A stretch of DNA of 54,552 nt, counting the filler, from Bipalium vagum (taxonomy: Eukaryota), in the NCBI GenBank assembly GCA_037834085.1. It is 3 parts of 3 records of this genome, joined end to end, with 100 filler letters (N's around TTAATTAATTAA, not from the genome) between each part and the next. Parts side by side here need not be neighbours in the genome. Positions count along the whole stretch, not along the records: positions 34,983 to 54,552 come from JBBMKC010272455.1; 2 more parts are not named here. One strand, written 5' to 3'. Made by a program: the position numbers and the translations under genes. Positions within the stretch are counted from its first letter, which is position 1; every line of letters begins with the position of its first letter. Shown piece after piece: positions 1 to 53,886 of this stretch. The notes under the pieces were generated by a model. The model saw only the letters and a program-made list of their open reading frames with translations, was not told the DNA's origin and searched no databases.

Positions 1-74
1 TTAAGTATTTTATTTTTTATTGGATTAATAAAATTTTTGAAACTATGAGTGACTTCATTGAAATAGCTGCTAAC

Positions 75-6457: not shown

Positions 6458-7238
6458 ACAAATAACATACAACAATTTTTTATTATGAAAGAAAAATAAT
6501 AGATTCAACAATAAACTTTTATTGACAAAAAATAATTATTTGCACAAATGTCAAATGTTCCAACAAATATCGTTTCCCGTTAATCAACTGCAACTAATGT
6601 CAAAAATTATCCAAATTGATTCTAAAGTAAAACACTAATTTATTAGATCACCAAAAACTATACAAAAACTCAAAATGAATAGATAATATAAACAATAAAA
6701 ATCAATCGATAATTCAAAGTGTAAAAACACCAATTATAACAAAAATGAATTAATTAGTCAAAAAATAAATAAGAATCACCAAAAAGTTATGAGAATAAAA
6801 AACGTAAATTGATCATAAAATTAAAAATAAAGTGAAGAATGCTTACCAATTTTTCAGAATTCAAACAACGCTTGGGTGTTAATTTGACTAGTCTAAAGAC
6901 GGCCGAACTCAAATATTTTGGATAATATTTTCGAAGTTAGTTTTAGTTTATCTTGATTGTCCAAAATAACCAAATATATACATATTTGTTTTGATGCTCT
7001 TAGTGTATTAAAACAAATCATGGAAATTTCTGTCTGATTTTCATTACTTTTTTTATTCATCACAATTTCAATTCCGATTTTTTTAATGAACTCCATTAAT
7101 TTCTCTTTAATTTTTGATAATAATTTTTCCAAAAATCATTTCAAGGCATTTCATCCGTTTTCATAATTTCCATCCTCAAAGTTTTTGAATTATTTATTAT
7201 AAATATTTATAACTACGTGGAAATATATTTTTAAATAT

Positions 7239-21800: not shown

Positions 21801-24800
21801 TCTTTAATATATTACTATAAAAATTTTTAACAAGTAATCTTATATTTGTAGAAATATTTATTATTAATTTTTCTAATAACATTAACTATAATATTGGGTT
21901 ATCAAGCACGGATTTTGTAGTTAATATTATTGCCAAATTTGATAACTAATTATTTTGACATTGGGTTAATATTTTAACATTCAATTTTTTAAGTCGGTAA
22001 ATTATAATATTTTTATGCTTCAATAATTTTGAACTTTGACAGTTTAATTTTTAATTTAAATATTTTGTAAAATTCTGAATGGTGGAAATTATTGGTTCGA
22101 TTATTGATTGACAATGACGAGTATATATATATTTCGATTATTATTATCAGAAATATTATTATTTCGATTATACATTCGATTATTTCCACTGATTATTGAT
22201 TCGAACTAAATAATAATTTCCACCATTCAGAATTTTACAAAATTAAATTAAAATTTAAACCGTCATTTAGATAATTAAAGTGTGTTGTTTTAAATATGAT
22301 TGACTGTTGATAAACTGATAATAGGTCGAAATATATTTCATGATAATAAGTGTTTGTTCAAAATTATTGAAATGCGTCTATTTAAAAAAAATTTATATTT
22401 TTTGATATATATATATATATATATATATAAACATAAAAGCAGACGATATCAAATTGATTCATCATATTTTGCACAGATAATTTTGACATCATAAAAAAGT
22501 CAAGTATTCTCTTAGAATTTGGCTATTGAAAATAGTGCGATTTGCCGACTGATGTATTCTAGGACATTATGTAATTGTTAAGACCGATATATGGTGGAAT
22601 AGTCGTATCCATGGCTAAAAACCAAGTTTACGATAATATATGAGTTTCAAAATTTTCGATAACCAATAAACGGTTTGGCTCTTTCTAGATGACCGTGTAC
22701 ATCAACTGCGGATGAAAACGGATATTGGGCAAAGAACATGGATTACGTGAATCGAAATTTAAGTGCTCGAGACCTTACCATATACTACGTATTTGTAAAA
22801 TGATTTCTTAAAATATTTCTGAGGATTAAACCAGAATAATTAAAAAATTTTTTTTATTACGACTTTGTACAATTATTCTTTGTAAAATATGCGAGTTGAC
22901 ACAATCTTAAAAAGTTATTTGAATTTGGATTTTTTACAAATTTCAAAATTTTTATTAATTCAAATGTTTTAATAATGAAAAATAGATTTAGGTATATGTG
23001 AAATGAATCAATATTGTTTCATATTAGTTAATTTTGTGTGAAATTTATAACATCGAATTTTGATATAAGGTTGTATTATTTTAGAACTTTACATATGCAA
23101 ATTTGTTGACGTAATTAAATACATTAATGATTACACGCAAATAAGTTTTATCTAAATTGTATAGCACAAAAATATGACATTTTTTAATATTGGAAAAATT
23201 ATAATTATATTATTTTGTTTATAATACATAAAAAGAAATATATATAATAAATGTCTATATTTTACGTGTATTGAACTCGAAATAAATAACTATAAAAATG
23301 TTAAATTTATTGTCTAATAACACTTTTAATGATTTCAATTAATAATTTGTTTTATTATAATTTTGAAATATCAGAATATTACTAAATCATAAAAATAAAT
23401 GCTTGACTTACAAATGGAATTAGACTAAATTTTCCATTAACAAGATTTCAATACCTTCATATTTACTTATTCTAACCTATAGAATCATAAGTGACACCGA
23501 AAATCGATACATATTTCTAAATTCAACTTTACATGTTTAATATTTAAAAATTCAATAAATCTGTTTGTGTAAAATCAATTAGTATTAGTACGTTGGAAAA
23601 TGATTTCTTACTGATCACATTTGTATACTAGGCAAAGCTTTAATGAAAGCCGGTCAATCTGAAATTTATATTGGAAGGGCAAAAAAACAACTCGGACAGA
23701 AAATAATTACAAGCTATGTTGCCACGCTTAAATCGTTTCTGAACACTGATTTAAAGACCGTAAATGTGAGAATTGTTGTTTCTTTGTTTTCTTTTTTCTT
23801 TGTTTTTAAAAAATATAATTTTTTCTCAATATAATTTTACTTAAAAATAATTTTCATAGTTTTAAAATATATTTCTAACATTTAATATTGATTTTAAAAA
23901 GTTCATTTTTTAATTATTAATGAAACTAATGTTACTATTTATCTTACGGTTTATTTACATATATTAGTCACCTAAAACTGTTTTCATTCTTTTTTCTTTT
24001 TTAGACTGAAAGAAAAACTTTGGAAAATCTTCGATTAGATCTGGATCTTGCTAAAAATAAAGTCAAAAAAGCTAAAAGTGATCAATCAATCCAAATCGTT
24101 GGAATATATTCTTTTCATTAATTGTTCATGTTTTTTTCAATAGGCCGAATCTGAATTAAAGAAAGCTCAAGGTGATTTCGATGATCAATTAGTAATTGCA
24201 AAATTACATCTTGAGGGGATTAAATCTATTCATGTTAGTTCAAAAATCACCTAATGATAATTATTTAAAAATATCAATTTAAAATTTTGTAATTTATGCA
24301 ATAATTTTTCATTTCTTTAGAACAAAAGTATTGAGAAAATAACACAGTTATTTTTATTAATGTAATTAAATACAATTTCTTTTTCTGCCTTTCCTGAAAC
24401 CATTAATGAAAGAAGCTCACTGACATCAGTATTATTGTATTTCAAATATTCACTACAAATTAATTATCCAATTTTCCTTGATTATTTTTGCAAACTTTCT
24501 TTAAGCCGATTTTTTATATTTTTATCGACTGGAGATTGATTATGAATTAATTATTCAATTAGCTTTCTGAATTTGAGAAATACTTTAGATATTTTTCAAA
24601 AATAAGAGCATTCAGAAAAAAAATCTCTAAAATAAAAAAAAGTTTAAAAATAATTAATTCAATAAAGATAAGTAATTCAATGATAATGTCATTGTCCAAT
24701 ACTGTTATACATATTAAAATGAAACATAAAAGAAGAAAAATATTTTACTGGAAAAGTAATAACTATTCTTTATCTTGTATCAGGTCGAAAGAAAAGTATA

Positions 24801-27668: not shown

Positions 27669-30600
27669 TTAATCTGGGTCCTAAAAAAATATATTCTATT
27701 AGGCAGTATTCACAAAATATAAATTTACCAAGGTTCTCGAACCAAAGGATGAATTCGGTCTTTTAGAATTTTGACTAAGCTTTGTTATTTCATTTTGTAT
27801 TAAGGATTCCAGTTTTTGTTTTCTTTCATCTTCACTTAATTTACTTGACTAAAATTAAATTGAATAACGAGAATTGGTTATTGAGAATTCAAAAAATAAT
27901 AATAATAAATAACAAGAAAAATTAAAAAAGCACACCATTGTTAAAGTTTTCAAAATGACACCCATGGCTTCTCTACTACTGGATTTAGATTTTTCTAAGT
28001 TTTCTAAATTGATTAGCACTGAATCAATTTTAGAAACAATACATCTTGTGTTATTATCCATATGATCTACACGTCTATTTAGTGATCGATAATCTTCCAT
28101 AGAAACAGATTGACTTAATAATTTATTTTCTTCAGCAGTTTTTTTCATCATTTCATTTTTTTCAATTTTGTTATTTATGGAATTCTGAAGAGAAAAAGAT
28201 TGAAAAATATTTTAAAAATACAATGATAATAAATAAATAATAATATTAAAAACAAAAATTATTCGTTTTTTATTTTAAGAAAAATTATTTTATGTTAAAA
28301 ATCATTCTAACGAAACGAGAAAAAATTAAAAATGTATTGATTTTGTTTTAGATAATCACCATCTTTATTATTAATCATTAGTAACTTATTTTGTAGGAAA
28401 TTAGATTATTTATTATTACTGTACAAATGTTACAAAGAAATGTTAATGTCAGTGGCAAATATTCAATTGTAAGAAAAATAAAAATAGGAGAATACTTTTC
28501 TTATGTTTTATTTCTAATACTATTATATAATAGTATTATATTAAAAGTAACGAGACTGGATTATTTATAATGATGTATAGTCAATATTTAATAAAGAAGA
28601 TTCTTCACAAATATTTAACAGAAAATTTTAATTTTTTAAATCACAAGAGTCCATAAATGGTGAAATACTTAATTGTTCACAGTGTAATTTAAGATGTGTT
28701 TTACCAGGCTATTATAGTATGTCAATGCTTAAATATCTATGATTAGAATATTTATCAATAATAAAAGTAGTTATTATTTTTTAATGATATATACAACACA
28801 AACCCTTATCCTTTTAGTCAAGGGGTCGGGAAAAACGTTAACGAACGAAGAAATCGTCTAATTAAAATATAAAAGAAATGATTTTTTTAAATCTGAAATT
28901 TATTAGGTAGATCAGAAGGTGTCATAAGAAATCTGAAAAAAACTCGTTAATCACGATGTCAGAAAAGGATCAAAGGATAACTAAAAAATAACTTTTTACC
29001 AGAAATGTTAGATTTAATATGAAGCGACAAAGATTAGATTAAGTGCAATCCAAATAAAGAATAAATGTTTATTGCCAGTTACCAAACTACACTTTACTAA
29101 CCTATTGCGCAAAGATAAGCATATTAAATGGAAGAAAATGATAGGAAAGCCGAAGCTAACAAAGAAATACAAAGACTTGGTTGGGCTAGGAAATATTCGC
29201 ATTTCAAAGATGAGTGAAGTCCGCACGGTAATCTACCTCGAAATATTTTGCCAATGGTCGCCAATATGATACTGTTTTTCAATTACGAAGAGCAATTGAT
29301 GAATATTTGTTTAAAATTGATAAAGAAGTTATTCTAAAACTTATTTTATAAATGCCTAAAGTCTAAAAGTCTAAGTAAAATATATTGAGTATAAGTATAA
29401 TCTTTGGTGCGTACAATTGAATATTTCACCAAATTTGTTACTTTAACATTACTTTTTGTATAAATTCAGTTTGATTTAAATATACAGTGCTGAAAAAGAC
29501 ATGTGCATACCCGAATAATACTACATAATATATATGTAGTAATATTAGTTTTGATGATTAATGATTACCTTTATAAAAAATCGATAACGATTTTGTCTAA
29601 ACTAGCCTATTTTAAATTTTCTAATAAATGACAGGAGCGCATAAATTAACTATGGATGAACGTACAAGTGATGGTGCTGGATGAACTTGGAATAAGCTAT
29701 CTTCAAATTGCGAAAAAACTCAAAGTTGCTGACAGAACATTCACTAGAATTATGAAGAAAGTACATGAAATAGGTACTGTGAAAGACAAAGTTAAATCAA
29801 GTAGACCAAAAAATATTCGATTAAAGAAAAATGTGCCTTAGCCCACACAGGTCTCAAAAATCGACGTCCAACATCTTCTGAACTAAAAATGGAATCTAAC
29901 AATTACTATTGAGTTTCTGTAACAGAAGAAACCGTGAGAAATATTCACCCTAAGTATGGATTGAGCGGCTGGCTGTGTGGCTGTCAGAAAGCTATTGTTG
30001 CCAGAGACTAATCGCAAGAAGAAAATAGCTTTCGCTCTCTACCACTTGTCTACCACCAATGGACGCACTTTCTTAGGAGTGATGAGAGATCGTTCAAATT
30101 ATTTCAAAATGAAAAGTTCTTACCAGTATGTATCAATTCAACAGCGACATTTGGAGGAGGCTCAATCATGGTGTAGGGGTGCATGTCCTTGGCTGGAGTT
30201 GATCGCCTCTTCCACTGCATAGAGCTTATGAATCAATATTTGTATATAGATGTTCTGAAGAATCAAATGTTGCCATCGACAAGAGATTTATTGGGGCGTA
30301 ATAAACCATTTATCTTTCAGCTCGAAAATGCTCCAAGTCATAAGGCTAAACTGGTCACTGACTTTCTTGCTCGCACACATGTGGAAGTTTTGGATTAGCC
30401 AGTCCAAAGCCCAGACCTAAATCCCATTGAGCACCTATGGAATATTCTCTTTAAAAAGGTACACGGAAAAAAACCAAGGAGTCTAGAGTAATTATTTAAT
30501 GAGTTAAAAAATGTTTGGCAGCTCATCACTTTTGAGGAAACCCGCAACTTGATGGAGTTCATACCACGACGTGTACGAGCAGTTATTGAACCCAAAGGTC

Positions 30601-33600
30601 TGCAAACCAAATATTGACGGTTGCATGTGAAATTCTAGTTTTTATATATACCAATATTAAACTTGTTTGAATATTTTTGTATAAAAATAAATAAATATCA
30701 AGTTTTCCATTATTTTGTTATATTATTTGGGCAGGGACATGGGTTTTTTCAACACAATGTTTTGGAATTTCCTACATATCTTTTATTAAAAAAAACATTA
30801 TGTAATATGAATAAATACAAATGTAGTTTGATTTTATCAAAATTAAAATTTTTTAGAGGTGCGTACAATTAAATATTTACCACTGTATATATTTGTATAA
30901 TGGTATAAGTAAAAGATAAAAGATTATTAAAAGATTACAATAATAAATATATAACACAATATACAATAATTCACATTATTTCTATATAATACATACGAAA
31001 TAGGTAAAATATGTATTATTTTAATTCTTTAATTGTATTTCTTATTAATTCATTACAAAATACATTTTTTATGATTTTAAAACTGAAAATTCAAAAATAT
31101 TTCACTTTATTTAAAGTAAAAAGAACCTTAACCTTCATATCTTCTAATTCTTTTTCCATTATCATTTGCTCCTTTTCATCTATAAATCTGTTGCCATCAG
31201 TGTCATATTTCGCAAAGACGGATTCAATTTCTGTATCGCTGTAACCTCGTCTACAAAGATTTTATTAAAATAAAAATTTTCAAATTATTTATTTATATTA
31301 TTATTAATTGTCATTAAATATGAAATTTCTGACTTTGATTTTATACTTTAATTTACCTTTTCAAAAAACTAAATGTAATTATTTCAAAAAAGCTTCAGAA
31401 CCATCTAGAACAGTTATCCCATAAAATAACATTTTTAAAGTTTCAATAGATATTATTAATGCAAGACAAAATTCACTAATAAAGATTAAATATATCATTT
31501 TGACAGACAAAAGCCCAATACTGTGTAATTTTTTGATTCCACTTTTATACTAATTTGAAGATCTGGAGTTTAATAAACTTCGCCAGTTCCTTGTGAAGAG
31601 CTTCTTCAAACATGTGACTTATTGCAGATAATTATTGGTATTTTCTGTTTGGGTTATTAAATAAGATTCACTTTTAATTCATTCTTCTTTTTGAAAAACT
31701 GGTCGTCAAATGGTTTTTTAAAAGTGACTTACAATTTTCAATCCGTTTATTTATTTGACTTTCCAATAGTTCGTAAGGGTCGATTTGAAGAGCTACGTAT
31801 ATACATTATTCCTATAAACTGGATGTTGTTGGATGGTGGACTTCAGTGACTAATTGAAAAAATGAATTCAACAGATCTTTATCAAACATGGATACCCTTC
31901 CGCAGTAGGGTTGATATTTGAGGTTAGTGTAATCTGATTTGAACTTTCATTCCATTCAAAATAGTGAAATGATTATTTTCCAAACTTTTGGTGATTTCTC
32001 TGAAACTTATTCTACTTTCACGATATTCAAATTCTTCAAAAGTCCGATAGTTCAATGAAACATTGTGTTTTTCTTATTCCAGTCTTATTGACAAATTTAA
32101 CATGAGTACTTCTTATGATTCACGAATTATTTAATTACCTATTTAAATGACAGGCATGCAAAAATGTAGATATATATGATAAAATTAGATTGATTAAACA
32201 GATGAAATAATCCGGGTGCAATTCACTAAAAAATTAAGTAGCCTGTCTTTATTAAAATGAATATACTAAATTAAAAAGGTAAATTTCCTGAAATGTTAAA
32301 CTTAAAATATAAGAATTCATGTTTCAATATAATCACCTCTTACAATTCCCATTTTAGTCGTTTGGAAATTCATTAAAGTTTTTTATGATTTTTTAATTAT
32401 GTCCGAAAGAACTGTTTTAAATTCAAAGATGAATATTATACATTCTATCATTAAAATGAATTTACCCCAATTTTTTTAAAAACTACTTTTAGTATTGAAA
32501 GATAGATTTCCTTGGCCCATTTCTAAATTTTCGAGTTTCTCTTTATATAGATTTAAAAACAATGGATTTTCCAATGCTTACATTACAGTTATATGAACAT
32601 TAATCAGAATATTTTAGTCAATCTTTTGTGCTTACAATTTCATCTCTGTTTTCCATTCATTGAAATCCATCACTCCGTCATTATTAATATCAGCATTTCT
32701 TAATGCGTTTTGTATATCAATTATTTTTTCTTTTTTCAGGTGTAATTTTTTGAGAATTATTTCAGTTCTCTGAAATTAAACTATGTTATAGAGAGGAATG
32801 TAAATAATTTATTAAATTAACAAATCATTTAAATTTAAAGGACACAATACTGTTAATTATGGTATATTATTATAATTTAATGATGAGGTACAAAATTTTC
32901 TTGTACTACTGAAATTCATAATATTTTCAGATTTATATATTTATAAAAAAAACTTAGTTTTGGCTTAAATATTGTCCATTTATCAATAGGTGTAATATCA
33001 TTAAAATCGTTCACACCAGTTTGAGTCAGCTCAAGTTGAGGAACTAATAAGGGTTCGCAAACATGAAGAAACCTTTGACATCGTAAAAGCATTAAGGAAT
33101 TGACTTGGATATCAGATTAATTTGAATTAGTTTCACTTGTTAGGTAAAAGATCCAGTGTTTAAAGGCAAGTGTTTTAAAATAATAAAATCTATTGAAGAA
33201 TCAATGTTGTTGAGAGATTTTCAGATTTTTATGGATCAGATTTTGACCTCAACCATTCACCAATATCTTCACGCCATGGAAAACGTTAATGCATTTTGGT
33301 TTAAATTCTTAAAAGTGAAATTCTGTTATCCGTTCAGTCTTAATAATAAACTCGTTGCATCTTATAATGATAAATGTTTAAAAGAAATTGAAAAATGATA
33401 TTGAAAATTCACATGAAAATATCGATATCCCTTTTTATAAAGAGTCTTCGTCGGTTCAGTATTATTACAATAAGATATGTTATATACCGCGAGTCACTTA
33501 TGTATCGTATATCAACATTATTGACAAATTATCATGTACTGCTTCAAGAAAAAAACGTATTTCTTCAAGACAATATATGAAAACATTATAGCAAAACACC

Positions 33601-34825
33601 TAAATGAGGTTTTATACAAAACAATCAATTATCCAGCATATTCTCAATCTATCTTTCATCTCGATAAATGTCTTCAATATTTAAATGAAATAAAAGTAAA
33701 AAATAGAAAAAAAATTAGTGCAATATATTTTATACCTAAAGAAATTTTACGAAATCGACTATGAAAAGATAAAAGAAAATTATAGACAATAACAAAAGAA
33801 TATAAATATTATAACAAAATGTTTCCTTTATAAATGGAAAATATTTACAAAACTCCATTATACATGGAAAGACTTCATAAATTGAAATTATGAAAATGTG
33901 TCATATAGGGTAATTTACTTTTGATAAAATAACCCAGAACTTTTAAACTAAATTAACCTCTTTAAGGTAATCAGCAATTTCGAATTCATTTTTTTTGCTT
34001 GCCATTTCTTCTTTGACGTCTGAGTAAGTATCAGTGATGATTGCCAAAAACATATTGAATAAGACGAAAAACACAAAAAAAACATAGAAAACGAAATAGA
34101 TCGGTCCAAGTATTCTATGAGCCATTTCTAATTGTGCAAAATCAAAATCGCCCAATATTATTCGGAAAAGCGTATAGCTGAAATAATACTAAATAAATAT
34201 TTATTATTTTTAAATTAAGACATTTTATTAAAGGATTATTACTTCAACTATGTGACCTGAAAAGGTATTTATATGATTCTGAAAGATTTTCACTTATTTA
34301 ATCAATAGTATTATATTTTCCCATCATTAGAAATATTTTCGTAATATACAATCAGTATTTATGTATCAGAATTTAAAATTGATATAATACATTATTTATT
34401 ATTATTTGATTAATATTATAGAGATTTTTAGAATATCTTAACATTTATCTTAACTCCAAATATTTTAAAATTAATTTTTAATATAATAATTATAATTTAT
34501 TTTAATAATCTTAGAAATAATTATATGATGAATTTTTTGAATTGTGAAAAATGTCATCTTAAAATGAGATAATGAAAATTATATCCTTATAAAATTAGAT
34601 AACATGAAATATATTTCTATTTATATTAATGAAGAAATGTTACATGCAGTTTTCCATTTTACTAAAATCTGCAACTTGGGATCCAAAAATTAAATATCCC
34701 AATTGAGAGAAAGCCACAAATATTATGGAAAACATTATTGTGAAACCTGCTAAGTCTTTCGAACATTTACTTAATGTTGAACTTAGTTGGGCCATTGTTT
34801 TGTTAAAGCTGATATATTTAAAAAT
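27669..34825 (-). CDS. PKD2: Polycystin-2 / TRPP (PKD2/PKD2L-like) cation channel, 3' half (S4-S5 linker to C-terminus)
   Basis: Exons 34825-34644, 34177-33958, 32769-32636, 31250-31133, 28184-27936, 27848-27729, 27680-27669, in frame with [32 protein letters not shown]; pore [10 protein letters not shown]; S6 [21 protein letters not shown]; EF-hand loops [12 protein letters not shown] and [12 protein letters not shown]; coiled coil RRVDHMD...IVSKIDSVL. 5' exons not found in the window. Confidence 0.95.
28450..30885 (+). mobile_element. Tc3/Tc1-like element with IR/DR termini, interrupted by a younger Tc1
   Basis: Outer ends cagtggcaaatattcaattgta (28450) and tacaattaaatatttaccactg-TA (30885). 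Inner repeats of the same motif at ~28658 and ~29406. GKTLTNEEI Tc3-like N-terminus at ~28830; broken ORF. Confidence 0.7.
29485..30757 (+). mobile_element. Tc1 (DD34E) transposon, near full length, pseudogenised
   Basis: TA-cagtgctgaaaaagacatgtgc left TIR and gggacatgggttttttcaacac right TIR. ORFs 29656-30398 give [53 protein letters not shown]. Confidence 0.9.
31450..32130 (-). mobile_element. Highly decayed mariner remnant in a PKD2 intron
   Basis: [20 protein letters not shown] and [10 protein letters not shown] resemble WVPHELSE.Q...R.E.C.SLL and DN..R..QWL. Boundaries approximate. Confidence 0.5.
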
Positions 34826-34882
34826 CTGAAATGAAAATTATATTAAAAAATCAAATTTAATAATTAATGAATTTAATCATTA

Positions 34883-34982
34883 NNNNNNNNNNNNNNNNNN
34901 NNNNNNNNNNNNNNNNNNNNNNNNNNTTAATTAATTAANNNNNNNNNNNNNNNNNNNNNNNNNNNNNNNNNNNNNNNNNNNN
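34883..34982. other. Artificial scaffold joint (N44-TTAATTAATTAA-N44)
   Basis: Same 100-bp linker structure as 17403-17502; falls immediately upstream of the first visible PKD2 exon. Confidence 0.95.
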
Positions 34983-35400
34983 CAACTAAACTTTGATATC
35001 GAAATAAATCTATTCTAATTTATTTTATATTATGAAAATTCTATACTGATCCTCTATGTTCTTTTTCTTCTATATACTTATTTAATTTTCCTATATTTAA
35101 AAAAAGTGTATTTCTAATTTCTTCTTTCAAATTTATTTTTTCTGGTTTAGAATAATATGAAGATGTTAATCCTTGTTTATCTTCAGAAATATCTCTTTCA
35201 TAATTATATTGTATTAATATCTTATATTTAAATTTATTATATAATTTTAAATATTTTTTTAATATTTCCATTAATTCATTTTTAAAATTATGAATATTTT
35301 TGTTATCAGTTTCTATGGTTAATTCAATTTCATTATATTTAAAATTATCAATATTATAAACATATTTTTTAAATTCATCACGAAAGATTTCTTTATTATA
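34983..35400 (-). mobile_element. Maverick/Polinton pPolB N-terminal region fragment (second copy)
   Basis: ORF 35041-35271 ends YIEEKEHRGSV*NFHNIK*IRIDLFRYQSL, resembling the IE....RGSGW.F..I..L.I...Y.PL motif of Maverick PolB N-termini. Confidence 0.55.
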
Positions 35401-35768
35401 TTATATGTTAATCGTTCTTTATGATTTTTTGATTTTAAATGACTTATTAATCCAGTGTTTGTCTGAAATTTCTTTCATAGATTTCATATTTAAATTTCAT
35501 TTTTTGTCTCTTTTATATGTTGTTTTTTAAAATATTTTTTATAGTTATGGACGTAGAGCACGAAACAAAATTAGTATAAAAGTCAATAAAAATAAATTGA
35601 TTATTGGATATAAAAAAGCGGTATATATTATTATTTTATTAATTATTTTTATTATTTCTATTTATATTTAAATAATAAATTCATTCTTTTTCATATTTTT
35701 TTAATTGTTTACAGTGAATAAGGGCATTGTCGTTTCTACTTTTAGTAATTCAATAAAATTAAAAAAAA

Positions 35769-35926
35769 TTTAAAAAGATCATAAGACATAATAAAATAAA
35801 AACATTTATAGAATTACAACTACAACAGGGTTTGTTGATTTTACTGAAGATCATTCCTTACTAACAGTAGAAGTGAAATAAATTAAACCTAGTGAATTAG
35901 GAATATGTACAACAGAATTATAGCAT
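35769..35926 (+). pseudogene. Intein/Hint-domain (block B, TxxH) fragment
   Basis: FKKIIRHNKI / NIYRITTTTGFVDFTEDHSLLTVEVK*IKPSELGICTTEL*H; TEDH at 35843-35854. Matches the I.T..G.V.VT.DH.L....IK..EL.IG pattern of Hint block B. One frameshift and two stops. Confidence 0.6.
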
Positions 35927-37680
35927 ATTCTTTATCAGAAATATTTAATTTATTAACCATGGAATAAAATTTTTCTTTTGATAATAATTCTACTTTAATA
36001 AATTTTCAAAAATATCTAAAATATTCATATGGATAAATTTTTTAATTTATTTATTAAATTTTATTTTAAATATTTAGATTTGAAATGTTTTCATTTAAAT
36101 TTATTTCCTTTGATAATTCTTTTATTATTAATCAAAAGTCATCCAGATCCATTGTGAAAATATATTGATATAGATTTGATGTACCTGATTTAAGATTACC
36201 ATATACATGAGCAGGTCCTAAATGGTCATGATCAATTAATATATTCATAAGATGATTTCTAAATGGACCTTCAATGTTCCTCTTATAAAAATGACAAATA
36301 TTATATTCTTTAAAATGTTCTTTTTCTTCTTCAGTTAAATTATATGGAATATTTATTCTCAATGTATTGTGAGAATATTATTCGATATTTATTAATCAAT
36401 TACAAAATTTTTTTATACAATTTTTTCCTTTAAATAATAATTGATATATATATATATATATATTGCTGACTTATTTAAGATACAAAAATCATAATGTTTA
36501 TTATAGTCAGATTTATTTATATTTATTGATAAACATATTTCAAAATTAAATAATTCTTGATTTTCTTTTTTTTGTTAAATTATATCTAATTTCTTCATTT
36601 ATCCCTGCTTTAAAATCTTTAATTAAAAAATAATGATCTTCATGAAATAATAAAATTGCTCCACATATATTATTTATATTTTGTGAAGAAATATGTAATG
36701 GATATGTTCACCATGATTTTCTTAATTATAGTATTTTTATCAATACCTTCAATCATAAATAAATTTATTTTCAAAATATTTTCTTTTCCAAATTTATTGA
36801 TATTATTTATTTTTATTGGTAATCTTCTTTATTATATTTTAATTTATTTTCATATTATTTATCCCATGTTAATCTTTCTTTATGACAGGGAATTTTATTA
36901 TGCTTTAAAAAAGTTTACCATAAAAAATATTTTTTATCTTGATTCTGAATGTTGATTATTGAATGAGATTTAAAAGGTAATGGAGCCAATGTTCTTTATC
37001 ATAAAATTATTTCATCAATTGAAAGAACTAAATGAGAAAAACCATCAATTATCTATTCAGACTTTTTCAATTTTGGTCATATGTCTTCCATTTCTTCTAA
37101 ATTTAATATAATATTTTCTGTTGATGATTGAATGTTATTTATTGTTAATATTGTTCCAACACACAAGAACTTTTTAAAGTGAAATATCCAGAATCAGTTG
37201 GATGATAAAATTTAATATTTAAATTTAATCATAATTTAAATGTTTTGAAACATCTTCCCTCCTGAATATAATTGAACATTAAATCTTTAATTTTAGGAAT
37301 GAAATTACTTAAATAGTCTCTTAGATCATTTCCTTCATATTCTTCTTTTTAAATTAAGAAATCTTTCGAAGAATTATAAATTTTTTCATGAAGTGTAATA
37401 TTATTTTTATTATTATAATCACTTAAATTTTGATGAGAAATTTGTTGACTTCGATTGTTTTGATTATCGAGATTGTTTGAATTATCTCCACAATATTTTT
37501 ATGAGTTATTTTTGCCGCAACTGTATTAAAAATATCTTCACAAAAAATACATTGTTTATTTGGTGGTTGTACATTATTTTATTTATAAATATGTGATTTG
37601 GATTTTTTGTGAGAAATTAAACGTGTGAGTGTTCTGCAATTTTTTGACAAATATCACAATAACTTTTTCAGGTTTTTAGT
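35925..37680 (-). mobile_element. Maverick/Polinton protein-primed DNA polymerase B pseudogene (N-terminal zinc fingers to exonuclease region, with internal deletions)
   Basis: Collinear motifs across broken frames: YCDICQK..LISHKKSKSH; CIFCEDIF; LPFKSHSIINIQNQDKKYFLW; LPIKINNINKFGKEN; YPLHIS..HYFLIKDF; EEKEHFKEYNICHF..DHDHLGPAHVYGNL; IFHNGSG; IYPYEYF..LSKEKFYS..ISDKEY. Confidence 0.85.
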
Positions 37681-38401
37681 TTTTAAAAAAATTTAACTTT
37701 TTTGATTTTTAAATGTTTTTTAGTTTTTAGGAATTCTGTTTGAAAAAAAATTTTAACTTTTATGTACTTTAACTGTTTTTAGAAAATAAAAAATTATTGA
37801 TTTAGACACATTAGTAATTTCTTTTCATTAAATTTAAAATTGTCAGTTGCTTTGTATTTATTAAAATATATAAGATCATTGTATATATTTGTAATTCTAA
37901 TTCATTTTTTAATATTCAAATTTTGTAATAAAATTTATTAAAAATTGTAAATCTTTTTTGTATTGAAATGAATGTTAAATGTTATATTTTGATTGGTAAA
38001 TATTTCATAATATTTAATTTGTGGAATGTTTTCATTTATTTTGAAGAGCTCTTTATTTTTTATATGGCTTAGATTAGTTCTGATGTTTTTGATTTATATA
38101 AATTTGAGTGAATGTTGAAAATCTAATAAAAGCAAAATTATGAAAATGTAAAAGATTAAAAAGGTTCTATATAAATTTAAATTTCATTTATTTGTTAAAA
38201 AATTAGAAAATATTTTTGTAATTTAAAATAATTTTTAAAAATAATATAATAATAATAACAATAATAATATTATTATTATTTAAATTTATTATTTCAAAAG
38301 AAATTTGTCAATATTTACATTAGATATGTAGTTAAAATGGTCTTAATTGATTAGTAAATGCGCAAACGAAAGAAAAGTAAGTTCAAATAATAATAAAATA
38401 A

Positions 38402-38407
38402 TATAAA
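38402..38407 (+). promoter_or_regulatory. Candidate TATA box of the MMP gene
   Basis: TATAAA 40 nt upstream of ATG 38442; AT-rich context lowers specificity. Confidence 0.35.
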
Positions 38408-38441
38408 TAGTGAATTGAAAATGAAGAAAAATTAAAAAAAA

Positions 38442-40487
38442 ATGAAAATTGAATTTCTATTAATTTCACTTTTATTTTGTAAGTTTTTTTACTTTTTGAA
38501 AGGATTTTAAAATTTTTTTTCAGATTGCTCTGTTAACACTTTTAAGCCCAGTGGGTATAGAGATGCGGAAAAGTATTTGAAGATGTTCTATAAAATCGAC
38601 ATAGCAAATGGAAACATAGAACAATCAATTAANNNNNNNNNNNNNNNNNNNNNNNNNNNNNNNNNNNNNNNNNNNNNNNNNNNNNNNNNNNNNNNNNNNN
38701 NNNNNNNNNNNNNNNNNNNNNNNNNNNNNNNNNNNNNNNNNNNNNNNNNNNNNNNNNNNNNNNNNNNNNNNNNNNNNNNNNNNNNTCCAGGCTTCTGCTG
38801 GTATTGAGGCTAACGGCGTCTTATCGGATGAAGTAATGGCTTATATGAATAAGCCTCGCTGTGGAGTGACCGATGATCCTAAAATATCAAAGAGATACGG
38901 TAAAAGTGACGAAAATATATATATATATATATTTAACATATCGTTTTCTAGTTGCCTCAAATACAAAATGGCAACAAGGAGTCACTTACAGATATTATAT
39001 TCACTTAGACTGGTTACCACGAACAATGAGCATATCCCAAATAAGGTTCAGTGATAACATAATATTTTAATAATGAATCTTACAATTTATAGGAGAGCAA
39101 TTTCAGTCGCCTTTGGCTACTGGTCGAAAGCATCAAATATTGGTTTTGCAGAATCTCCTTCTACATCAGGCTGCAAATTTTCTTTGAGTTTTGTTAGCAA
39201 AAATCATAACATTTACGATGTCCATAACAATTTCACACCTAGGCCTGACCATTCTACCATTGATAATGTCCCAGGAGGTTTGTATTGCACTTTATTTAAT
39301 TGTTTTACGTTTTACTACCCGTACTGATTCTTTTCAAAAATAGCTGTGCTGGCTCATGCGTATTTTCCAACAAACGGAAATGTACACTTCGATAATGCTG
39401 AGACATGGACTGAGGGTCAGAAGAGTGGGATAAATCTTAGGCTTGTAGCTGCCCATGAAATAGGACACGCCCTCGGACTAGGTCACAGTTCCGATTACAC
39501 AGCTTTAATGGCTGCCTTTTACAGTGGATATGTTTCTGAGCAAGATTTCAAATTGCCAGATGATGATACCAAAGGCATTCAAAGTCTGTATGGAGCAAGA
39601 GGAAAGAGAAGGTTGTTCTTCAAATCTCACAAGCTCGGAAAAGTTCATTCGAAATTTTGCAAAACAAAGAGCATAGATTCAATTTTCGAATGTAAGAAGG
39701 AAATGAGTTCAGTTTGGTATTAAATAGATAAATGTCTTAGTTTCTGATGGGAAATATTACGTCATCGCCGACGGTCACTTATTCCGATTGAATGGAACAA
39801 AACTAGACGAAAGCTTCGAGCCCGCGAAGGCCGACAAGCATTTCAAAAATGTCGATTCAATGTTCTATGATAAGCGAGGAAAACGACTTATTATATTTAA
39901 GGGTACTAAATAATAATTATTTTATTTTATCCTTATTTTATTTGTGTTTTCATATATTGCAGGACAAAGAGTTCTGTCCGTATTTGGAAATGATGTCCAT
40001 AATCTTAAGACGGAGGTATTGAATATCACTGGTCATGGAGCATATCTCGGAAGGAGTTCCGCTGCTTTCATAAGAGAAGAATCTGAAGATAAAGATCTTC
40101 AATACTTTTGGATTATTCAAGTTGACTGTAAATACTGCTTAATGACATCATTGTTATTTATTAGGATCACAAAGTCATCTCTGGTGAACTGTGGAAGAAT
40201 AAAGTGATATTTGGTAGAAGAACTCAAAAATTATCCGACATTGTAGAAGTGAGTAAAGGAGTCAAATTGCCAAAAACCATCGATGCAGCAATTATAGCTG
40301 GAAAGAAAGACAAATTAAGATTATATATCTTTGTGGGAAATAGGTAAAGAGATTACTATAAATTGTAAAATCTTAAAATGTTTTCAGTTACTATGTTGGC
40401 CTGCCCAGAGGAAGAAAAGAATCCAAATATTTTATTCCAGCAGAATATCCACAGCCTTATAAAAGAATTCTGAACTGTGGAAAATAA
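38442..40487 (+). CDS. Secreted matrix metalloproteinase (M10A) with signal peptide, pro-domain, catalytic domain and divergent hemopexin domain
   Basis: Exons 38442-38478, 38524-(gap 38633-38785)-38899, 38952-39045, 39093-39277, 39344-39691, 39741-39902, 39963-40120, 40165-40343, 40388-40487. Signal [14 protein letters not shown], cysteine switch [33 protein letters not shown], Met-turn [18 protein letters not shown], hemopexin C..IDSIF/VDSMF/IDAAI..C. Confidence 0.95.
38633..38785. other. Assembly gap (153 N) inside the MMP pro-domain
   Basis: Plain N run without linker. Flanks EQSI(K) and FQASAG are only a few residues apart in MMP pro-domains, so the gap probably holds mostly an intron. 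Confidence 0.9.
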
Positions 40488-40915: not shown

Positions 40916-41640
40916 TATTTAACGTTTTGAAATTTGAAATTTTTTGACAATTTAAAATGTACCTTTGAATAATTTGATTAAAAAAAATTTCTAAAATGAT
41001 AAAATAATAATAATATTATATATATAATTAGGTATTAGATTCATATGAAATAATTAATGAGATAAACCATATCTTTGACTATATTTATTTAAATGTTGAT
41101 GATGGCCAATTAACAATTTTATTCACAAATTTTAAAGAAAAATTTATGAAAAATAATATAGAAAACATAGAAATTTTTTTAGTAAATGAAAACAAATTAA
41201 TTGTACTTCAGAATAAGATCTTATTCTTGAAGGCATTATTCCTGAAGTTCCCAAGGAATAAAATTATTTAGAAATATTGGTCAAAATCGATAAAGAAATA
41301 TTTTTAAGGATATCAATTTAGAAGATGTGAAAAATTGTCTTGCGACAATTAAAAAAATGTCACATTAAATTGAAATGAGAATCAGAAAGCCGACTCATGA
41401 TCTTTGTAGTCCAATAAGTATTAGAGAAATTAAAAATAATTTCAAAAAGAAATTATATGGCCATGCTAAAGAAGAAGGGTAACGATTATACCAAAGACTA
41501 TGTCAATGTATTAAAAAGAGGTTTTCGTCTTGGAAAGGCACATTCGGAAATATTTAAATATAGTATTTCGATTTATTTTATCAAAAAACATTTTACAATT
41601 ATTGAAAATATATTTAACAAAATTTTATCTGATATATTTA

Positions 41641-41931
41641 TTATATGATCTCCAATTTTGAACTTTGGATTTATTGATAAAGGATTATTATTTTTGCGAG
41701 AATTAATTTTAACTTGTATACTTTCTGAATTTTCAACAATCAGAGAACATTATTTTGTTCTTTAAATCTAATGAAAAAAAATCTTAATAATATTAAAATT
41801 TGCAAAATTTAATTTATGTAAACAAAAGGTAACCTTCAAAATTTTAACCAAAAAATTCTTATATGATCTCCAATTTTGAACTTTGGTTTTATTGATAAAG
41901 GATTATTATTTTTGCAAGAATTAATTATAAC
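41641..41931. repeat. ~73-bp direct repeat, 218-bp period
   Basis: ttatatgatctccaattttgaactttgg(a/t)tttattgataaaggattattatttttgc(g/a)agaattaatt(t/a)taac at 41641 and 41859; duplicates the integrase KFKIGDH segment. Confidence 0.9.
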
Positions 41932-42200
41932 TTTTCTGGATTTTCACTTGCTTCTTGAGGAGAAATGCCAATTGAACTATGAATTTTGTTGTTATAAAAT
42001 TAATTAAATTGGGTAATAAATGATTCCATTTTCTGTTTCCTTATTCTATAATTTTTTTTAGAATTTTCTTTAATCTTTCGATGACTACAACTTTTCCTTC
42101 ATTCTTTGTTGAGTAAATTTCTATTTCATTATCATCACAGAAATCTTCAAATATTTCAAGAGATTTTAATTTCTTTTTCTTTAATTTTTGGGGATTCAAT
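41641..42200 (-). mobile_element. Maverick/Polinton retroviral-like integrase pseudogene (C-terminal half)
   Basis: FEDFCDDNEIEIYSTKNEGKVVVIERLKKILKK (catalytic E in IER), KWNHLLPNLIN, YNNKIHSSIGISPQEASE, KPKFKIGDHIRI: collinear Maverick integrase motifs. Confidence 0.8.
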
Positions 42201-45100: not shown

Positions 45101-45984
45101 CGTTAATAAATAAAATTCAAGGTACCTTGATAAAACAAAAAATTATACATGTTATTTAGTTGGAATGCAAATTGTTGAAATTTCAAAATCATTAAGAAAT
45201 TTATTTTAATTATAATACTAATGTTAATAATATTTTTGCCTTGCAACCAAACCGACATAAGATACCGAAATTTCACTACGAAACTTTTCTTTTCAATAAT
45301 TACTTTTTTAATATTATAATTAGTTTTTGGTTTATTAAATATTACTTAATTTTTTCATTCGATGAAATGTATAAAGAGTCAACGTTATATTTTATAATGT
45401 TTAATATATATATATTAATACTATATTAATTAATAATATATTATTAACAGTAAAAAATAATTATATAATAATGAAAAAATTCTATTGATTTCAACACTTA
45501 ATTTTTAATATATGTTTTATATTCTAATTAAGACAATTTGAAAAAAGATTATCTTCATCATAAATGGTAGTTAGTAAGTAGTAAAGAAATCATAAATTTC
45601 AATAAAAAAAATTAAATTGATTTTTATGTGTTTATTTGAAAAAAGTTTACATTTTGATTTTAGATTTATTAACAGAAAAAAATTATTTAATAATTAAAAT
45701 TATTAGAATGATTTAAATGAAAAGTTAAAACAAAAGAGAAACTCAATAACTACTTTATTTGGTTTTAAATATTTATTAAAAATTAAATAATTAATGAAAA
45801 ATTAAAAAATATGCAAAGAATATGGAAATATATTTTAAAAAATCCTAGCCCTAATTATTATAATTGGATTAAAAGAAATTATTTATACTATTTTTTTTAT
45901 TATTTTATATTATATAAATAATGATGCGTAAAAAAGATTTTGATACCATGAGTTTTGATAGATTTTTATATCGAGACCAGAAAA

Positions 45985-46284
45985 ATGAAATTTAAATGTG
46001 AAATCTATGAAAGGAAGTTTCAAACAAAAACTAAATTACTAAGGCATTAAAAATCAAAAAATCAAAAATGATTTTTGTAAAAAATAATGACAAACATTAT
46101 AATAAATATTTATGAAAGCAACTACCAAAATATAAAATTAAGTCTTGATTTTAATAAAGGAATCTTTCATAATGAATTTAATAAAATTGATTATAATATT
46201 GAAGATAGTAAAATTGAATTAACTGAAAACACTAATGACACAAACATTCACAATAATTTAAATAACAGTTATTATTACAATGTG
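45985..46284 (+). pseudogene. Degenerate zinc-finger ORF start, probably another Maverick-type fragment
   Basis: MKFKCEIYERKFQTKTKLLRH*KSKNQ resembles the finger at the start of the pPolB remnant (..LISHKKSKSH). Followed by Asn/Ile-rich ORF 46087-46290; cut by the Tc1 at 46285. Confidence 0.35.
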
Positions 46285-47618
46285 TACTGATCATCATAAT
46301 TTTTCAAACAGGATATAATTTAATATTACACAAGATTATACTGTTTAATTGTTTTCAAATTGTGTCTACATGATAGAAGTAGTTTTGAAAGCTGCGAATA
46401 TCATGTTTCCCATGCAATATTTGTTATGTACTGTAAATAAAATGACAGGTAAAAAATGAATATTTTTAAAAAATTCATAATTTTTTCATTTATTACGAAC
46501 ATGTTATTTGTTATACAAGGAACCTATTTTAATAAAATTGTACATAAACGTCTAAGACTTTTAAAAAATTGTGATTTTTGTACGTTGGGATTGATTAATG
46601 TTTTTGTTTCATTGACATTTTGAAATTGAGGACCGTCGTAGACTTGGTCTGAAATTAATTCCCAAATGTCTTCGGCAATGTTCAGATCAGTACTTTTAGC
46701 TAGCCAACTTAAAATCTTCATATCACTGGATTTCATAAGTTCTTTAACTTTGGCGTATTTGTGAATAGGGGAATTATCTTCTTGTAGCTCAAGATCTGTG
46801 CCAAAATTTAATTTAAAAATTGGCACAATACTTGACTTTAACAGCTCTATATTAAAGTTTTTGTAAAAAAAATCTGGGCCATCCAGACTAAAACGTTTTT
46901 TGTCAGTGAAAACAGTTTTTTCCTATACATTTTCACTAACCCAGGTACTTAATTTAAAAAATCGGTCTCCCTTATGTTTCTTACTTAGATAACACAGATA
47001 TTGTGCTTTTTCATACCTCATTTCACTTCCTTTAATGTGCCTTTGAATAGTCGATAAAGAAATATTCAAATTACACTCAATTTTTAATTTATTTGCATTT
47101 ATCTTACTATATTTATCTTTCAACTTGCCTATTACTCTTTTCATACTCAACCTCTGTCGTTTATTTATTGTAAACTTTGATCCACGTTTCTTACAGATAT
47201 TCTTCTTTAGATATCTACATAAACTAATTGCTGAGTTTCTTGTTATTTTTATAATTTTACCCTATTTAAACTTAATTTAATTCATCTTTCTTTAAAGCCA
47301 AGGCTTGAATTGCTAAAATTTAAAAACATATATCATGCACAAATAAGAAATAATTGCATAACGTTTAATAAAATATTAGGAAATGCTTAATAATTAACTG
47401 TTTGAAAAATTATGCTTTAATTTAAAATGTAGACTTTAACCCAATCATTATTTATATTATTATTTAAATATCATTTAAACAATTAATATTTCTAATATAA
47501 TGAAAGATATATTACTTTGAAGTAATGCATAATACCCTTGAACTTGACATTATACATAACTAAAATTATTTAAAAGGAATATAAATAATTATGTGGTGAA
47601 AAATTATGACGGTCAGTA
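46285..47618 (-). mobile_element. Tc1/Tc3-like (DD34E) transposon with both TIRs, internally deleted
   Basis: tactgatcatcataatttttca (46285) vs tgaaaaattatgacggtcagta (ends 47618), TA at both ends. ORFs 46923-47150 (ISLSTIQRH), VFTDKKRFSLDGPD and 46524-46826 (QEDNSPIH, WLAKSTDLNIAEDIW). Confidence 0.9.
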
Positions 47619-52181: not shown

Positions 52182-53886
52182 TATGTGGTGTGCTCAATAA
52201 GTAGTGAGCCTATAATAAGTAGAGGTTAATGTAAATTTAAAAATATTATAATTATATAAAGTACATATTATAGGTAAATGTGAGATATTTGTTTTAATAT
52301 ATTATTTTATATTTATCAGGTAAATTGCGTTTTTTATGTCTTTAGGAAATTTACAATATCGGAACGTCATTTGTTTCCTCCATTTGAAGAAAAAAAAGTA
52401 AAGAAGAAATTCAAAAGGAATTAAATGATGTTTACGGTGAGCAAAGTACTTCATGGGCTACAACAAAACGATGGTACAATGAATTTAAAGCTGGAAGAAC
52501 TTCCGTAGTGGATGTAGAAACATCCGGAAGACCATAAGAAATCAGCAAAAAAAATAACGAAAAACCTACATAAAAATATACAAAATGAAAGAAGAAGCAC
52601 AAGAAGAGAGCTCACTGTGCGTTTAAATGTTAGAAAAGGTACTATTCAGTTATTATTGGCAAGCAGTGACATCAGAAAGTTGTGCTCACGATTCGTGCCA
52701 CGTTTTCTAACTGCTTATATCCAAGCTCAACGTTTGGAGTATTGCCAACAGAATCTGAAAACTTTACAACGTACTGGGGACCAAATACTAGATAACATCA
52801 TCACGATGGAGTCTAGAAGAAAATAAAAAGAAAGAAAACTTCCAAGAGACCAGTTCAAGAAAGATGAATATAATCACACAAAAAAGCCATTATGTTCTCC
52901 TTTTTTTGGATGCTAATGGCGTGATTTTCAAAGATTTTTAATGAAACACGTGTTCGTCTCAATAGCGAATACTATAAATAAATTTTTTTAATCATACACA
53001 CATACATCTGTATCAAGTACAGAAGTAGAGACAATTATTTACAACGAGTAAATGTCATATTCACATAGTCTCTAGGTGATGGCAGTGTGACGAATCCTGG
53101 AGTCCCAAAAAACACTAGATATAAAATTTAATACACGTTAGGGGTCGGAACAAATCACTCTGTGCACCATTGAGAGTAAATTGATCTCTGCCCCCCATTG
53201 AAGTCAATACCCGCCAATGGAGGACAGGAAAAACACCAAACGCAAACCACAATCAAGGGATAAAATATATATAGAGAACACATATAAACACATACTATTG
53301 AAAGTTGAGAGTACAATAATCGTAGGATATATCAAGAACGGAACTGTGCACGAAGACGAGATTGTAATAAGATTGAGGATTTAGAGTATACAGAGAAAAA
53401 TAATAACAAGATAATGACAAGTTGGATAATAATGATAAGATTATATATATACAAGCAATATTGTCAACCTTGTGCGACAAGTTAGGACACTGAGAAGGAA
53501 GAACCGAGTCTCTTGTATTATCTGCATGACAACGCATCTATTCACACTAATGGATTTTCAACAACAGCAATTAAGGATTGTGGCTTGATTTTGCTCCCAC
53601 ATCCTCCATACAGTCTACACTTGGTTCCTTCCAATTTCTTTTTGTTGAAACAACTCAAGTGGGAACTAAGAGATAAAAACTTTTCATCAAAAGACAATTT
53701 GCAGTAGACTGTCACTGATTATCTGAACGACAAATCTCCCGATTTCTTCCAAAATGACTTCTCGCAACTTGTCACTCACTGGAAAAAATGTGTTGACGTT
53801 TCTGTGAACTATATTGAAAAATAATTACCTGTACATATGCATTGTTATTAATAAAAATTTTTTTTCGTTATCATTTCTTATCGGCT
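52182..53886 (+). mobile_element. Mariner transposon split by a ~484-bp insertion
   Basis: EIQKELNDVYGEQSTSWATTKRWYNEFKAGRTS..SGRP; RKLCSRFVPRFLT; NSEYY|C..VRQVRTLRRK; YLHDNASIHT; HPPYSLHLVPSNFFL. Left TIR-like tatgtggtgtgctcaataagt; right TIR mostly lost. Confidence 0.85.
52975..53458. mobile_element. Unclassified non-coding insertion within the mariner
   Basis: Removing it rejoins GAATAC-TA-TTGT (E-Y-Y-C). Flanked by TA(T) on both sides; no evident TIRs or poly(A). Confidence 0.55.

What the first reader, a model, noticed from the sequence alone, without database searches (positions are those of the whole stretch)
35769..35926. Intein/Hint-like fragment abutting a Maverick polymerase in an animal genome
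Seen: IIRH...IYRITTTTGFVDFTEDHSLL...IKPSELGI on the plus strand, joined tail-to-tail to the minus-strand pPolB remnant at ~35925. Established: TxxH is the block B motif of inteins/Hint domains; true inteins are not known in animal host genes but occur in large DNA viruses. Inference: intact members of this Maverick or endogenous-virus family may encode an intein- or Hint-containing protein, i.e. protein splicing or autoprocessing in an animal virus-like transposon. This is the most unusual signal in the window, but only ~50 decayed codons are visible.
Basis: partly seen in the sequence, partly recalled or inferred. Interest (0 to 1): 0.75.

Follow-up and report, generated by a model that had tools for sequence, protein, structure and literature searches.

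The report
Dead giant-virus intein in Maverick remnant
A short broken piece of a self-splicing protein element (intein) of the kind found in giant-virus DNA polymerases sits fused between two broken polymerase genes of a virus-like Maverick transposon in an animal genome, which hints, without showing it, that these transposons once carried an intein.

Summary
Window 35769-35926 (+) encodes about 52 codons, with one frameshift and two stops, of a true intein: strands before and after the block B TxxH motif. Of 49 phmmer hits, 39 are family-B polymerases with an intein at the YGD|TDS site and none is Hedgehog-like. A natural relative folds as an intein. The piece joins, with a 5-base overlap, a decayed Maverick/Polinton protein-primed polymerase with an Endonuclease VII domain on the opposite strand; a second such remnant lies on its other side. 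Block A, blocks F/G, the endonuclease and both exteins are absent, so it cannot splice and its host gene is not shown. No Polinton-borne relative was found: 0 of 160 loci, 0 of 18 Polinton-type loci, in collections that hold few animal Mavericks. From its position I infer a Maverick carrier (0.55; in the polymerase D|TDS motif 0.35); the rival is a scrap of an endogenised large DNA virus (0.33). Known intein family, new setting, carrier unproven.

The parts
35769..35794 (+). Upstream piece of the intein fragment (IIRH), in another frame than the main piece
   Evidence: Translation; I-R-H is nearly invariant just before the matched stretch in 23 natural inteins; gapped tblastn matches start at 35753-35780
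35795..35926 (+). Main intein fragment, about positions 73-115 of a giant-virus-type PolB intein, with the block B (N3) TxxH motif; two in-frame stops
   Evidence: block B His at about intein position 92
35922..36968 (-). Decayed Maverick/Polinton protein-primed DNA polymerase, remnant 1: profile positions 264-392, 498-617 (Endonuclease VII region) and 678-721 of 1262; ends at the join with the intein piece, about 400 residues before motif C
   Evidence: Profile of 13 Polinton-type pPolBs: 11.6-29.5 bits against at most 8.2 in 15 shuffled windows; motif C at residue 1062-1202 in the 11 full-length relatives that show DTDS there
36969..37790 (-). Probable 5' part of remnant 1 with zinc-finger-like CxxC/HxxH pieces and a 57-base direct repeat pair (37664-37780)
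   Evidence: Read by eye from six-frame translation; repeat; no profile hit, so weaker than the other parts
35506..35768 (.). AT-rich spacer with no trace of intein block A or of an N-extein: the left break of the intein island
   Evidence: Upstream-only score 12.5 against 10.4-14.7 in 25 shuffles; no clear match to the flank of the third copy
34987..35505 (-). Decayed pPolB remnant 2: zinc-finger start and N-terminal region (profile positions 74-249)
   Evidence: 20.6 bits; 35418-35504 is 87.5% identical to 45981-46068
41854..42148 (-). Separate remnant of a Maverick-type RVE integrase (shows that Maverick debris is common here)
   Evidence: tblastn with Polinton integrases, E 3e-5 and 7e-4; queries are rve+chromo
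45943..46260 (+). Third remnant of the pPolB zinc-finger start

Best explanation
SHOWN: the stretch is a dead, roughly 160-base island from the N-terminal splicing half of a canonical intein of the giant-virus PolB family (Ser first, Asn last, Thr as first C-extein residue in its relatives). In intact relatives the block B Thr/His helps the first acyl shift and the intein cuts itself out and rejoins the polymerase's catalytic D|TDS motif (established chemistry; PMC549080, first third read). Here only block B and its neighbouring strands remain, broken by a frameshift and stops, so nothing can splice. SHOWN: it is fused between two decayed Maverick pPolB pieces. INFERRED: it came from the Maverick family itself. 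A homing intein of a co-infecting large DNA virus invaded a Maverick gene, most plausibly the D|TDS motif C of pPolB, which is the same target tripeptide this family uses; the element integrated in the germline, and later inversion and deletion left the piece head-down against codon ~721 of the polymerase. My split: in pPolB motif C 0.35, in another or stand-alone Maverick gene 0.20.
For: Family: 39 of 49 phmmer hits are family-B polymerases with an intein at YGD|TDS; 17 of 23 natural relatives match Pfam Intein_splicing and none the Hedgehog Hint family; one folds at pLDDT 90.9 with archaeal and phage inteins as best matches, E 3.7e-10, and giant-virus polymerases as the first ranks in BFVD; the fragment covers model residues 67-109 with T83/H86. 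Carrier: no gap between intein and pPolB, 5-base overlap; pPolB remnants on both sides and two more Maverick remnants in the window; no trace of an RNA-primed PolB extein anywhere in 54.5 kb (best 4.7 bits); same AT-rich decay as the pPolB (2 stops in 44 codons against 3 in 121 and 9 in 128). The family changes hosts and sites: a phage PolB at YTD|TDS, topoisomerase II-type D|TDG sites, an XRN nuclease, a divergent PolB (L101). 15 of 16 Polinton-type loci show an empty xxD|TDS-type motif C. PMC11161782 (passage) already suggests that nuclease insertions in polinton pPolB stem from intein invasions.
Against: No relative was found in a protein-primed polymerase: 0 of the best 80 of 495 viral loci, 0 of the best 80 of 521 metagenome loci (33 of 64 parts scanned), 0 of the best 120 of 3893 proteins carry PF03175, no intein domain in 18 Polinton-type loci (best 7.6 bits), and three junction patterns gave only chance hits or none in IMG/VR (the YGD versions of these patterns match 49, 65 and 28 of 80 known loci). 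The intein lies on the strand opposite to both pPolB pieces, so the motif C version needs an inversion plus a deletion. The hairpin at the join is chance-level (12.7% of positions in the element have one). The tree cannot place the fragment (quick tree, no starred group). The join has no read support: one run holds the stretch and may be the assembly's own.
Confidence: 0.55

Rival explanations
1. The piece is a scrap of the intein-bearing RNA-primed DNA polymerase of an endogenised large DNA virus (Nucleocytoviricota or a herpes-like virus). It came to lie in a Maverick remnant by recombination, during co-infection or later in a repeat-rich region; Mavericks never used it.
For: Every relative with a visible host gene is in a large-virus or phage enzyme. 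L101 shows the same intein in a divergent, frameshifted PolB flanked by a CA repeat. A near-complete mimivirus-like genome integrated in Hydra is cited in 10.1101/299784 (passage). Opposite strand needs no inversion in this reading.
Against: No extein or other large-virus polymerase trace in the window. Maverick remnants cover well under a tenth of the window, so a foreign scrap landing flush between two of them is unlikely unless the two were linked at capture (inference).
Confidence: 0.33
2. The intein piece is real but the neighbourhood is an assembly chimera of collapsed repeats or of contaminating viral DNA.
For: Runs of N lie close to the left end of the composite; the upstream exons of the neighbouring PKD2-like gene were not found; only one run holds the stretch.
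Against: The piece is decayed like its neighbours, unlike a live contaminating virus; the window carries spliced animal genes (Ras-family, PKD channel, matrixin).
Confidence: 0.07
3. The piece derives from a host Hedgehog/Hint autoprocessing gene, or is a chance match in AT-rich DNA.
For: The fragment alone matches no curated profile.
Against: 50-65% identity to viral PolB inteins in single-stretch hits; no PF01079 match among 29 hits scanned or 23 relatives; no Hedgehog structure in the listed fold matches; shuffles score far lower.
Confidence: 0.03

Closest known systems
Mimivirus PolB (R322) intein and the giant-virus PolB intein family at the YGD|TDS site (Ogata et al. 2005, PMC549080; BFVD matches from Megavirus, Heterosigma akashiwo virus 01, Klosneuvirus, Marseillevirus, Pithovirus, Pandoravirus)
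   Same: Block B region with T and H, 55-67% identity over about 40 residues to the nearest environmental members; relatives have Ser1, terminal Asn and Thr+1.
   Different: Only about a fifth of the intein survives, with stops and a frameshift; no extein; it lies in an animal nuclear genome inside Maverick debris, not in a giant-virus gene. The Mimivirus sequence itself was not aligned here.
Polinton/Maverick pPolB with an inserted HNH/Endonuclease VII domain (Jeong et al. 2023, PMC10748475; Krupovic et al. 2024, PMC11161782)
   Same: The flanking remnant matches pPolB with Endonuclease_7, whose intact relatives lie beside rve integrase, A32 ATPase and double jelly-roll capsid genes.
   Different: Those papers describe bare nuclease insertions; no splicing domain is mentioned (0 hits for intein or Hint in the main text of PMC10748475; one sentence in PMC11161782). 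A Hint-bearing Maverick would be the missing direct case.
Hedgehog Hint (Hog) autoprocessing domain of animals
   Same: Same fold and TxxH motif (recalled).
   Different: No sequence or profile match to it in the fragment's relatives; viral context.

Membership tests
Canonical intein, giant-virus PolB (YGD|TDS) family | Block B (N3) TxxH with the family's flanking sequence | tested here: met
   TEDH aligns to invariant T83/H86 of 23 natural inteins; 49 phmmer hits
Canonical intein, giant-virus PolB (YGD|TDS) family | Hint fold | tested here: met
   Tested on a natural relative (L056), not on the fragment: pLDDT 90.9, best PDB matches are inteins; the fragment maps to its residues 67-109
Canonical intein, giant-virus PolB (YGD|TDS) family | Block A with Ser/Cys at position 1 | tested here: not met
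   Absent from this copy: upstream score within shuffle range. Loss by breakage; says nothing on the ancestor
Canonical intein, giant-virus PolB (YGD|TDS) family | Blocks F/G with terminal Asn and Ser/Thr/Cys at +1; LAGLIDADG endonuclease or its remains | tested here: not met
   No C-terminal intein or C-extein signal in the window (best 4.7 bits)
Canonical intein, giant-virus PolB (YGD|TDS) family | In-frame insertion in a host gene (extein identified) | tested here: inconclusive
   Both ends are breakpoints; opposite strand to the pPolB pieces; no genome held to look for other copies
Canonical intein, giant-virus PolB (YGD|TDS) family | Protein splicing activity | not testable with these tools
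   Needs an intact natural copy and a bench assay; this copy cannot splice
Polinton/Maverick element (the flanking remnant) | Protein-primed PolB | tested here: met
   Collinear profile hits 11.6-29.5 bits against <=8.2 in 15 shuffles; direct Pfam scan of the decayed frames found nothing
Polinton/Maverick element (the flanking remnant) | RVE integrase, ATPase, capsid and protease genes in the same element | tested here: inconclusive
   An integrase remnant lies 4 kb away beyond a host gene; no ATPase, capsid or protease match at E<=0.003
Polinton/Maverick element (the flanking remnant) | Terminal inverted repeats and target-site duplication | tested here: not met
   No long inverted repeat bounding the composite; no AGTAGT-type end motif (recalled motif) in 33500-39500
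Hedgehog Hint/Hog domain | Match to PF01079 and a Hedge/sterol-recognition context | tested here: not met

The most novel reading that the evidence does not exclude
A Maverick/Polinton family resident in an animal germline carried a true self-splicing, once homing, intein of giant-virus origin in the catalytic D|TDS motif of its protein-primed polymerase. Intact copies in this genome or its relatives would then make a polymerase precursor that must splice in animal cells, and would be direct proof that inteins moved from giant viruses into Polintons.
Probability: 0.35. Interest if true: 0.8.

Novelty: new variant of a known kind. Interest (0 to 1): 0.5.

Why it matters
Inteins of this family are well known from giant viruses. 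I found no report of one in a Maverick/Polinton or in animal nuclear DNA (searches; main-text term searches; the library lacks most subscription papers). If the carrier is the Maverick, it makes the proposed intein origin of pPolB insertions (PMC11161782) directly testable, marks gene flow from giant viruses to animal Mavericks, and puts protein splicing into a germline-resident animal element. If the carrier is a large virus, it is a small fossil of an otherwise unseen infection of this animal lineage. The copy in this window is dead either way.

Tried and rejected
Direct profile scans of the fragment: nothing in Pfam, NCBIfam or PDB sequences. Word-index protein searches with the fragment and with pPolB remnant 2: no hits. 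Locus search and phage tblastn with the decayed pPolB pieces: nothing; intact Polinton relatives were reached through a recalled Endonuclease VII motif (16 loci, of which L178 and L181 were dropped as not Polinton-like and L177 is fragmented). Atlas: no useful hit for the Endonuclease VII piece (best 0.76); a natural relative gave intein clusters only. Cluster look-ups for 20 relatives gave no animal source names. Tree of 91 short segments: unresolved. The one-residue longer spacer before the last His is shared with 17 of 154 relatives from scattered virus types, so it marks no donor. The hairpin at the join was first read as a fold-back signal, then rejected as chance. A tblastn hit at 6968-7117 (E 0.004) is low-complexity and outside the intein. 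My early reading that the element is in an intron of the PKD2-like gene is not established: the upstream exons were not found. Sequencing runs: one holder, no RNA holder listed. Supplement searches of PMC8502044 and PMC10748475 found no intein motif, but control pPolB motifs were not found either, so they say nothing; sequence files that I could not see may bear on the claim. L043 was left unclassified.

Full report
1. The observation. Alone it matches nothing in Pfam, NCBIfam or PDB sequences. Two searches that did not depend on any chosen profile identify it. Among 50,697 phage records its single hit (E 3e-3) lies in an intein of a family-B polymerase at a YTD|TDS site. Among 1.84 billion proteins it has 49 hits at E<=0.001: 39 are family-B polymerases or pieces with an intein at the YGD|TDS site, 6 are short intein pieces with no visible host gene, 1 is an intein in an XRN nuclease, 1 in a topoisomerase II, and 2 are repeat-rich proteins that I count as noise (in some double-intein polymerases the best stretch is the other intein).

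2. Which intein. The best 80 of 495 IMG/VR loci gave 77 YGD|TDS inteins by pattern, one more found later (L056), one topoisomerase II-type and one unclassified. The best 80 of 521 metagenome loci gave 73, plus frameshifted L101, plus 6 topoisomerase II-type rows of which 5 are near-identical (that scan covered 33 of 64 parts). Of the best 120 of 3893 long proteins, 119 carry PF00136 and none PF03175. Of 23 short natural relatives, 17 match Pfam Intein_splicing and none the Hedgehog Hint family. One of them folds at pLDDT 90.9; its best PDB matches are archaeal and phage inteins (E 3.7e-10) and its best BFVD matches are polymerases of Pithovirus, Marseillevirus, Megavirus, Heterosigma akashiwo virus and Klosneuvirus. 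The fragment aligns to residues 67-109 of that model, with the invariant T83 and H86 (partly circular, as these relatives were found with the fragment). This is the family described for Mimivirus PolB: Ser first, Asn last, Thr at +1, Thr and His in motif N3 (PMC549080, first third read; that N3 equals block B is recalled). No subgroup can be named: the quick tree of 91 segments leaves the fragment in no starred group.

3. What is missing. A frameshift-aware alignment places the main piece at intein positions 73-115 (score 70.3; 25 shuffles 11.5-18.2) and finds nothing for block A or an N-extein upstream (12.5; shuffles 10.4-14.7). Profiles of the N-extein, C-extein and C-terminal intein half score at most 4.7 bits anywhere in the window. 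The piece is an island with a break at each end. It cannot splice.

4. The surroundings. A recalled Endonuclease VII motif fetched 16 IMG/VR loci; 13 hold long polymerases, and in the loci scanned by Pfam they lie beside rve integrase, A32 ATPase or double jelly-roll capsid genes. Their profile finds collinear pieces on the - strand from 36968 to 35922 (positions 264-392, 498-617, 678-721 of 1262) and a second start from 35505 to 34987 (74-249), at 11.6-29.5 bits against at most 8.2 in 15 shuffled windows. So the intein piece abuts codon ~721 of a Maverick-type pPolB with a 5-base overlap, about 400 residues before motif C, and has another pPolB piece about 260 bases to its other side. An integrase remnant (41854-42148) and a third pPolB start (45943-46260, 87.5% identical core) show that Maverick debris is common here. 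Host genes are animal-like and spliced: Ras family, PKD channel, matrixin; the names Ral, PKD2 and endophilin B are my recalled readings. The upstream exons of the PKD gene were not found, so 'intronic' is not established. No terminal repeats bound the composite.

5. How it most likely arose. Shown: family, breakage, context. Inferred: carrier. For a Maverick carrier speak the flush join, pPolB on both sides, the lack of any large-virus extein, like decay, and the family's loose site choice: phage YTD|TDS, topoisomerase II D|TDG, XRN, and the divergent PolB of L101. Polinton pPolBs offer the same D|TDS target, empty in 15 of 16 loci (L170 has a variant motif). A review passage states that intein site specificity is relaxed in giant viruses (10.1101/299784), and PMC11161782 suggests that nuclease insertions in polinton pPolB come from intein invasions (passage). 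Against: no Polinton-borne relative in any collection. No intein domain in 18 Polinton-type loci (best 7.6 bits); three junction patterns gave 7 chance hits, 2 chance hits and none in IMG/VR, while their YGD versions match 49, 65 and 28 of 80 known loci. These collections hold few animal Mavericks, so the blank is weak. The opposite strand demands an inversion for the motif C version; the hairpin at the join is no evidence for one (12.7% by chance). I put the Maverick carrier at 0.55 (motif C 0.35, other gene 0.20), an endogenised large DNA virus at 0.33, chimera at 0.07, host Hint or chance at 0.03. These odds are judgement from position and base rates, not a computed result.

6. Literature. 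Searches: (listings and abstract starts). 'Hint domain' with 'Maverick' gave 0 papers. Passages read: PMC11161782, PMC12220804, 10.1101/299784 (63), PMC8502044 (intein 0, Hint 0), PMC3671162, PMC10748475 (intein 0, HNH and VSR insertions in pPolB described), 10.1101/214536 (100), PMC10120064. Term searches with no passage: 10.1101/2024.03.25.586562 (66), PMC4760082, PMC8097293. Supplement searches of two papers failed their positive controls and carry no weight; sequence files that I could not see may bear on the claim. I found no report of an intein in a Maverick or in animal nuclear DNA in these searches; subscription papers are mostly not covered.

7. Verdict. A real, dead fragment of a known giant-virus intein family in a new setting. 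It works like nothing now; its ancestor worked like the Mimivirus PolB intein. It cannot be filed as a functional intein (blocks A, F, G not met in this copy) nor as proof of an intein-bearing Maverick. No genome was held and no read support for the join was obtained, so the carrier and a possible assembly error stay open. One genome-wide search would settle the carrier. Interest 0.5; 0.8 if the motif C reading is right.

Noticed in passing
L101 620-5144 (metagenome contig): Divergent RNA-primed family-B polymerase (54% GC), frameshifted, with a full intein of the same family at YGD|TDS, an endonuclease-like middle, and a CA repeat at the contig end. Virus type and host not established; possibly a large virus outside the classic giant viruses.
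   Followed up: partly
window 41618-42148: Maverick-type RVE integrase remnant on the - strand with an internal 118-base duplication (85% identical).
   Followed up: partly
window 45943-46260 (+): Third remnant of the pPolB zinc-finger start, 87.5% identical over 88 bases to 35418-35504.
   Followed up: partly
window 27855-34810 (-): PKD-channel gene whose exons stop at 34810; no upstream exons were found between there and the window end, so the gene may be truncated, split by the Maverick debris or misassembled.
   Followed up: partly
window 22037-22265: Self-complementary stretch, 74% identical to its own reverse complement over 242 columns; perhaps a decayed MITE.
   Followed up: no
window 35531-35671 (+): 46-codon stop-free stretch with a hydrophobic run in the spacer before the intein piece; may be the tail of a small membrane-protein gene or low-complexity DNA.
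   Followed up: no
L019, L124, L135, L140, L143, L144, L146; P0030, P0050, P0053: The same intein family sits in topoisomerase II-type genes (D|TDG, D|CDG) and in an XRN nuclease, i.e. at non-allelic sites.
   Followed up: partly
window 70-432, 29650-30614, 46524-47261, 52388-53821: Several Tc1/mariner-type transposase remnants (DDE_3 confirmed for 46527-46922; the others read by eye).
   Followed up: no
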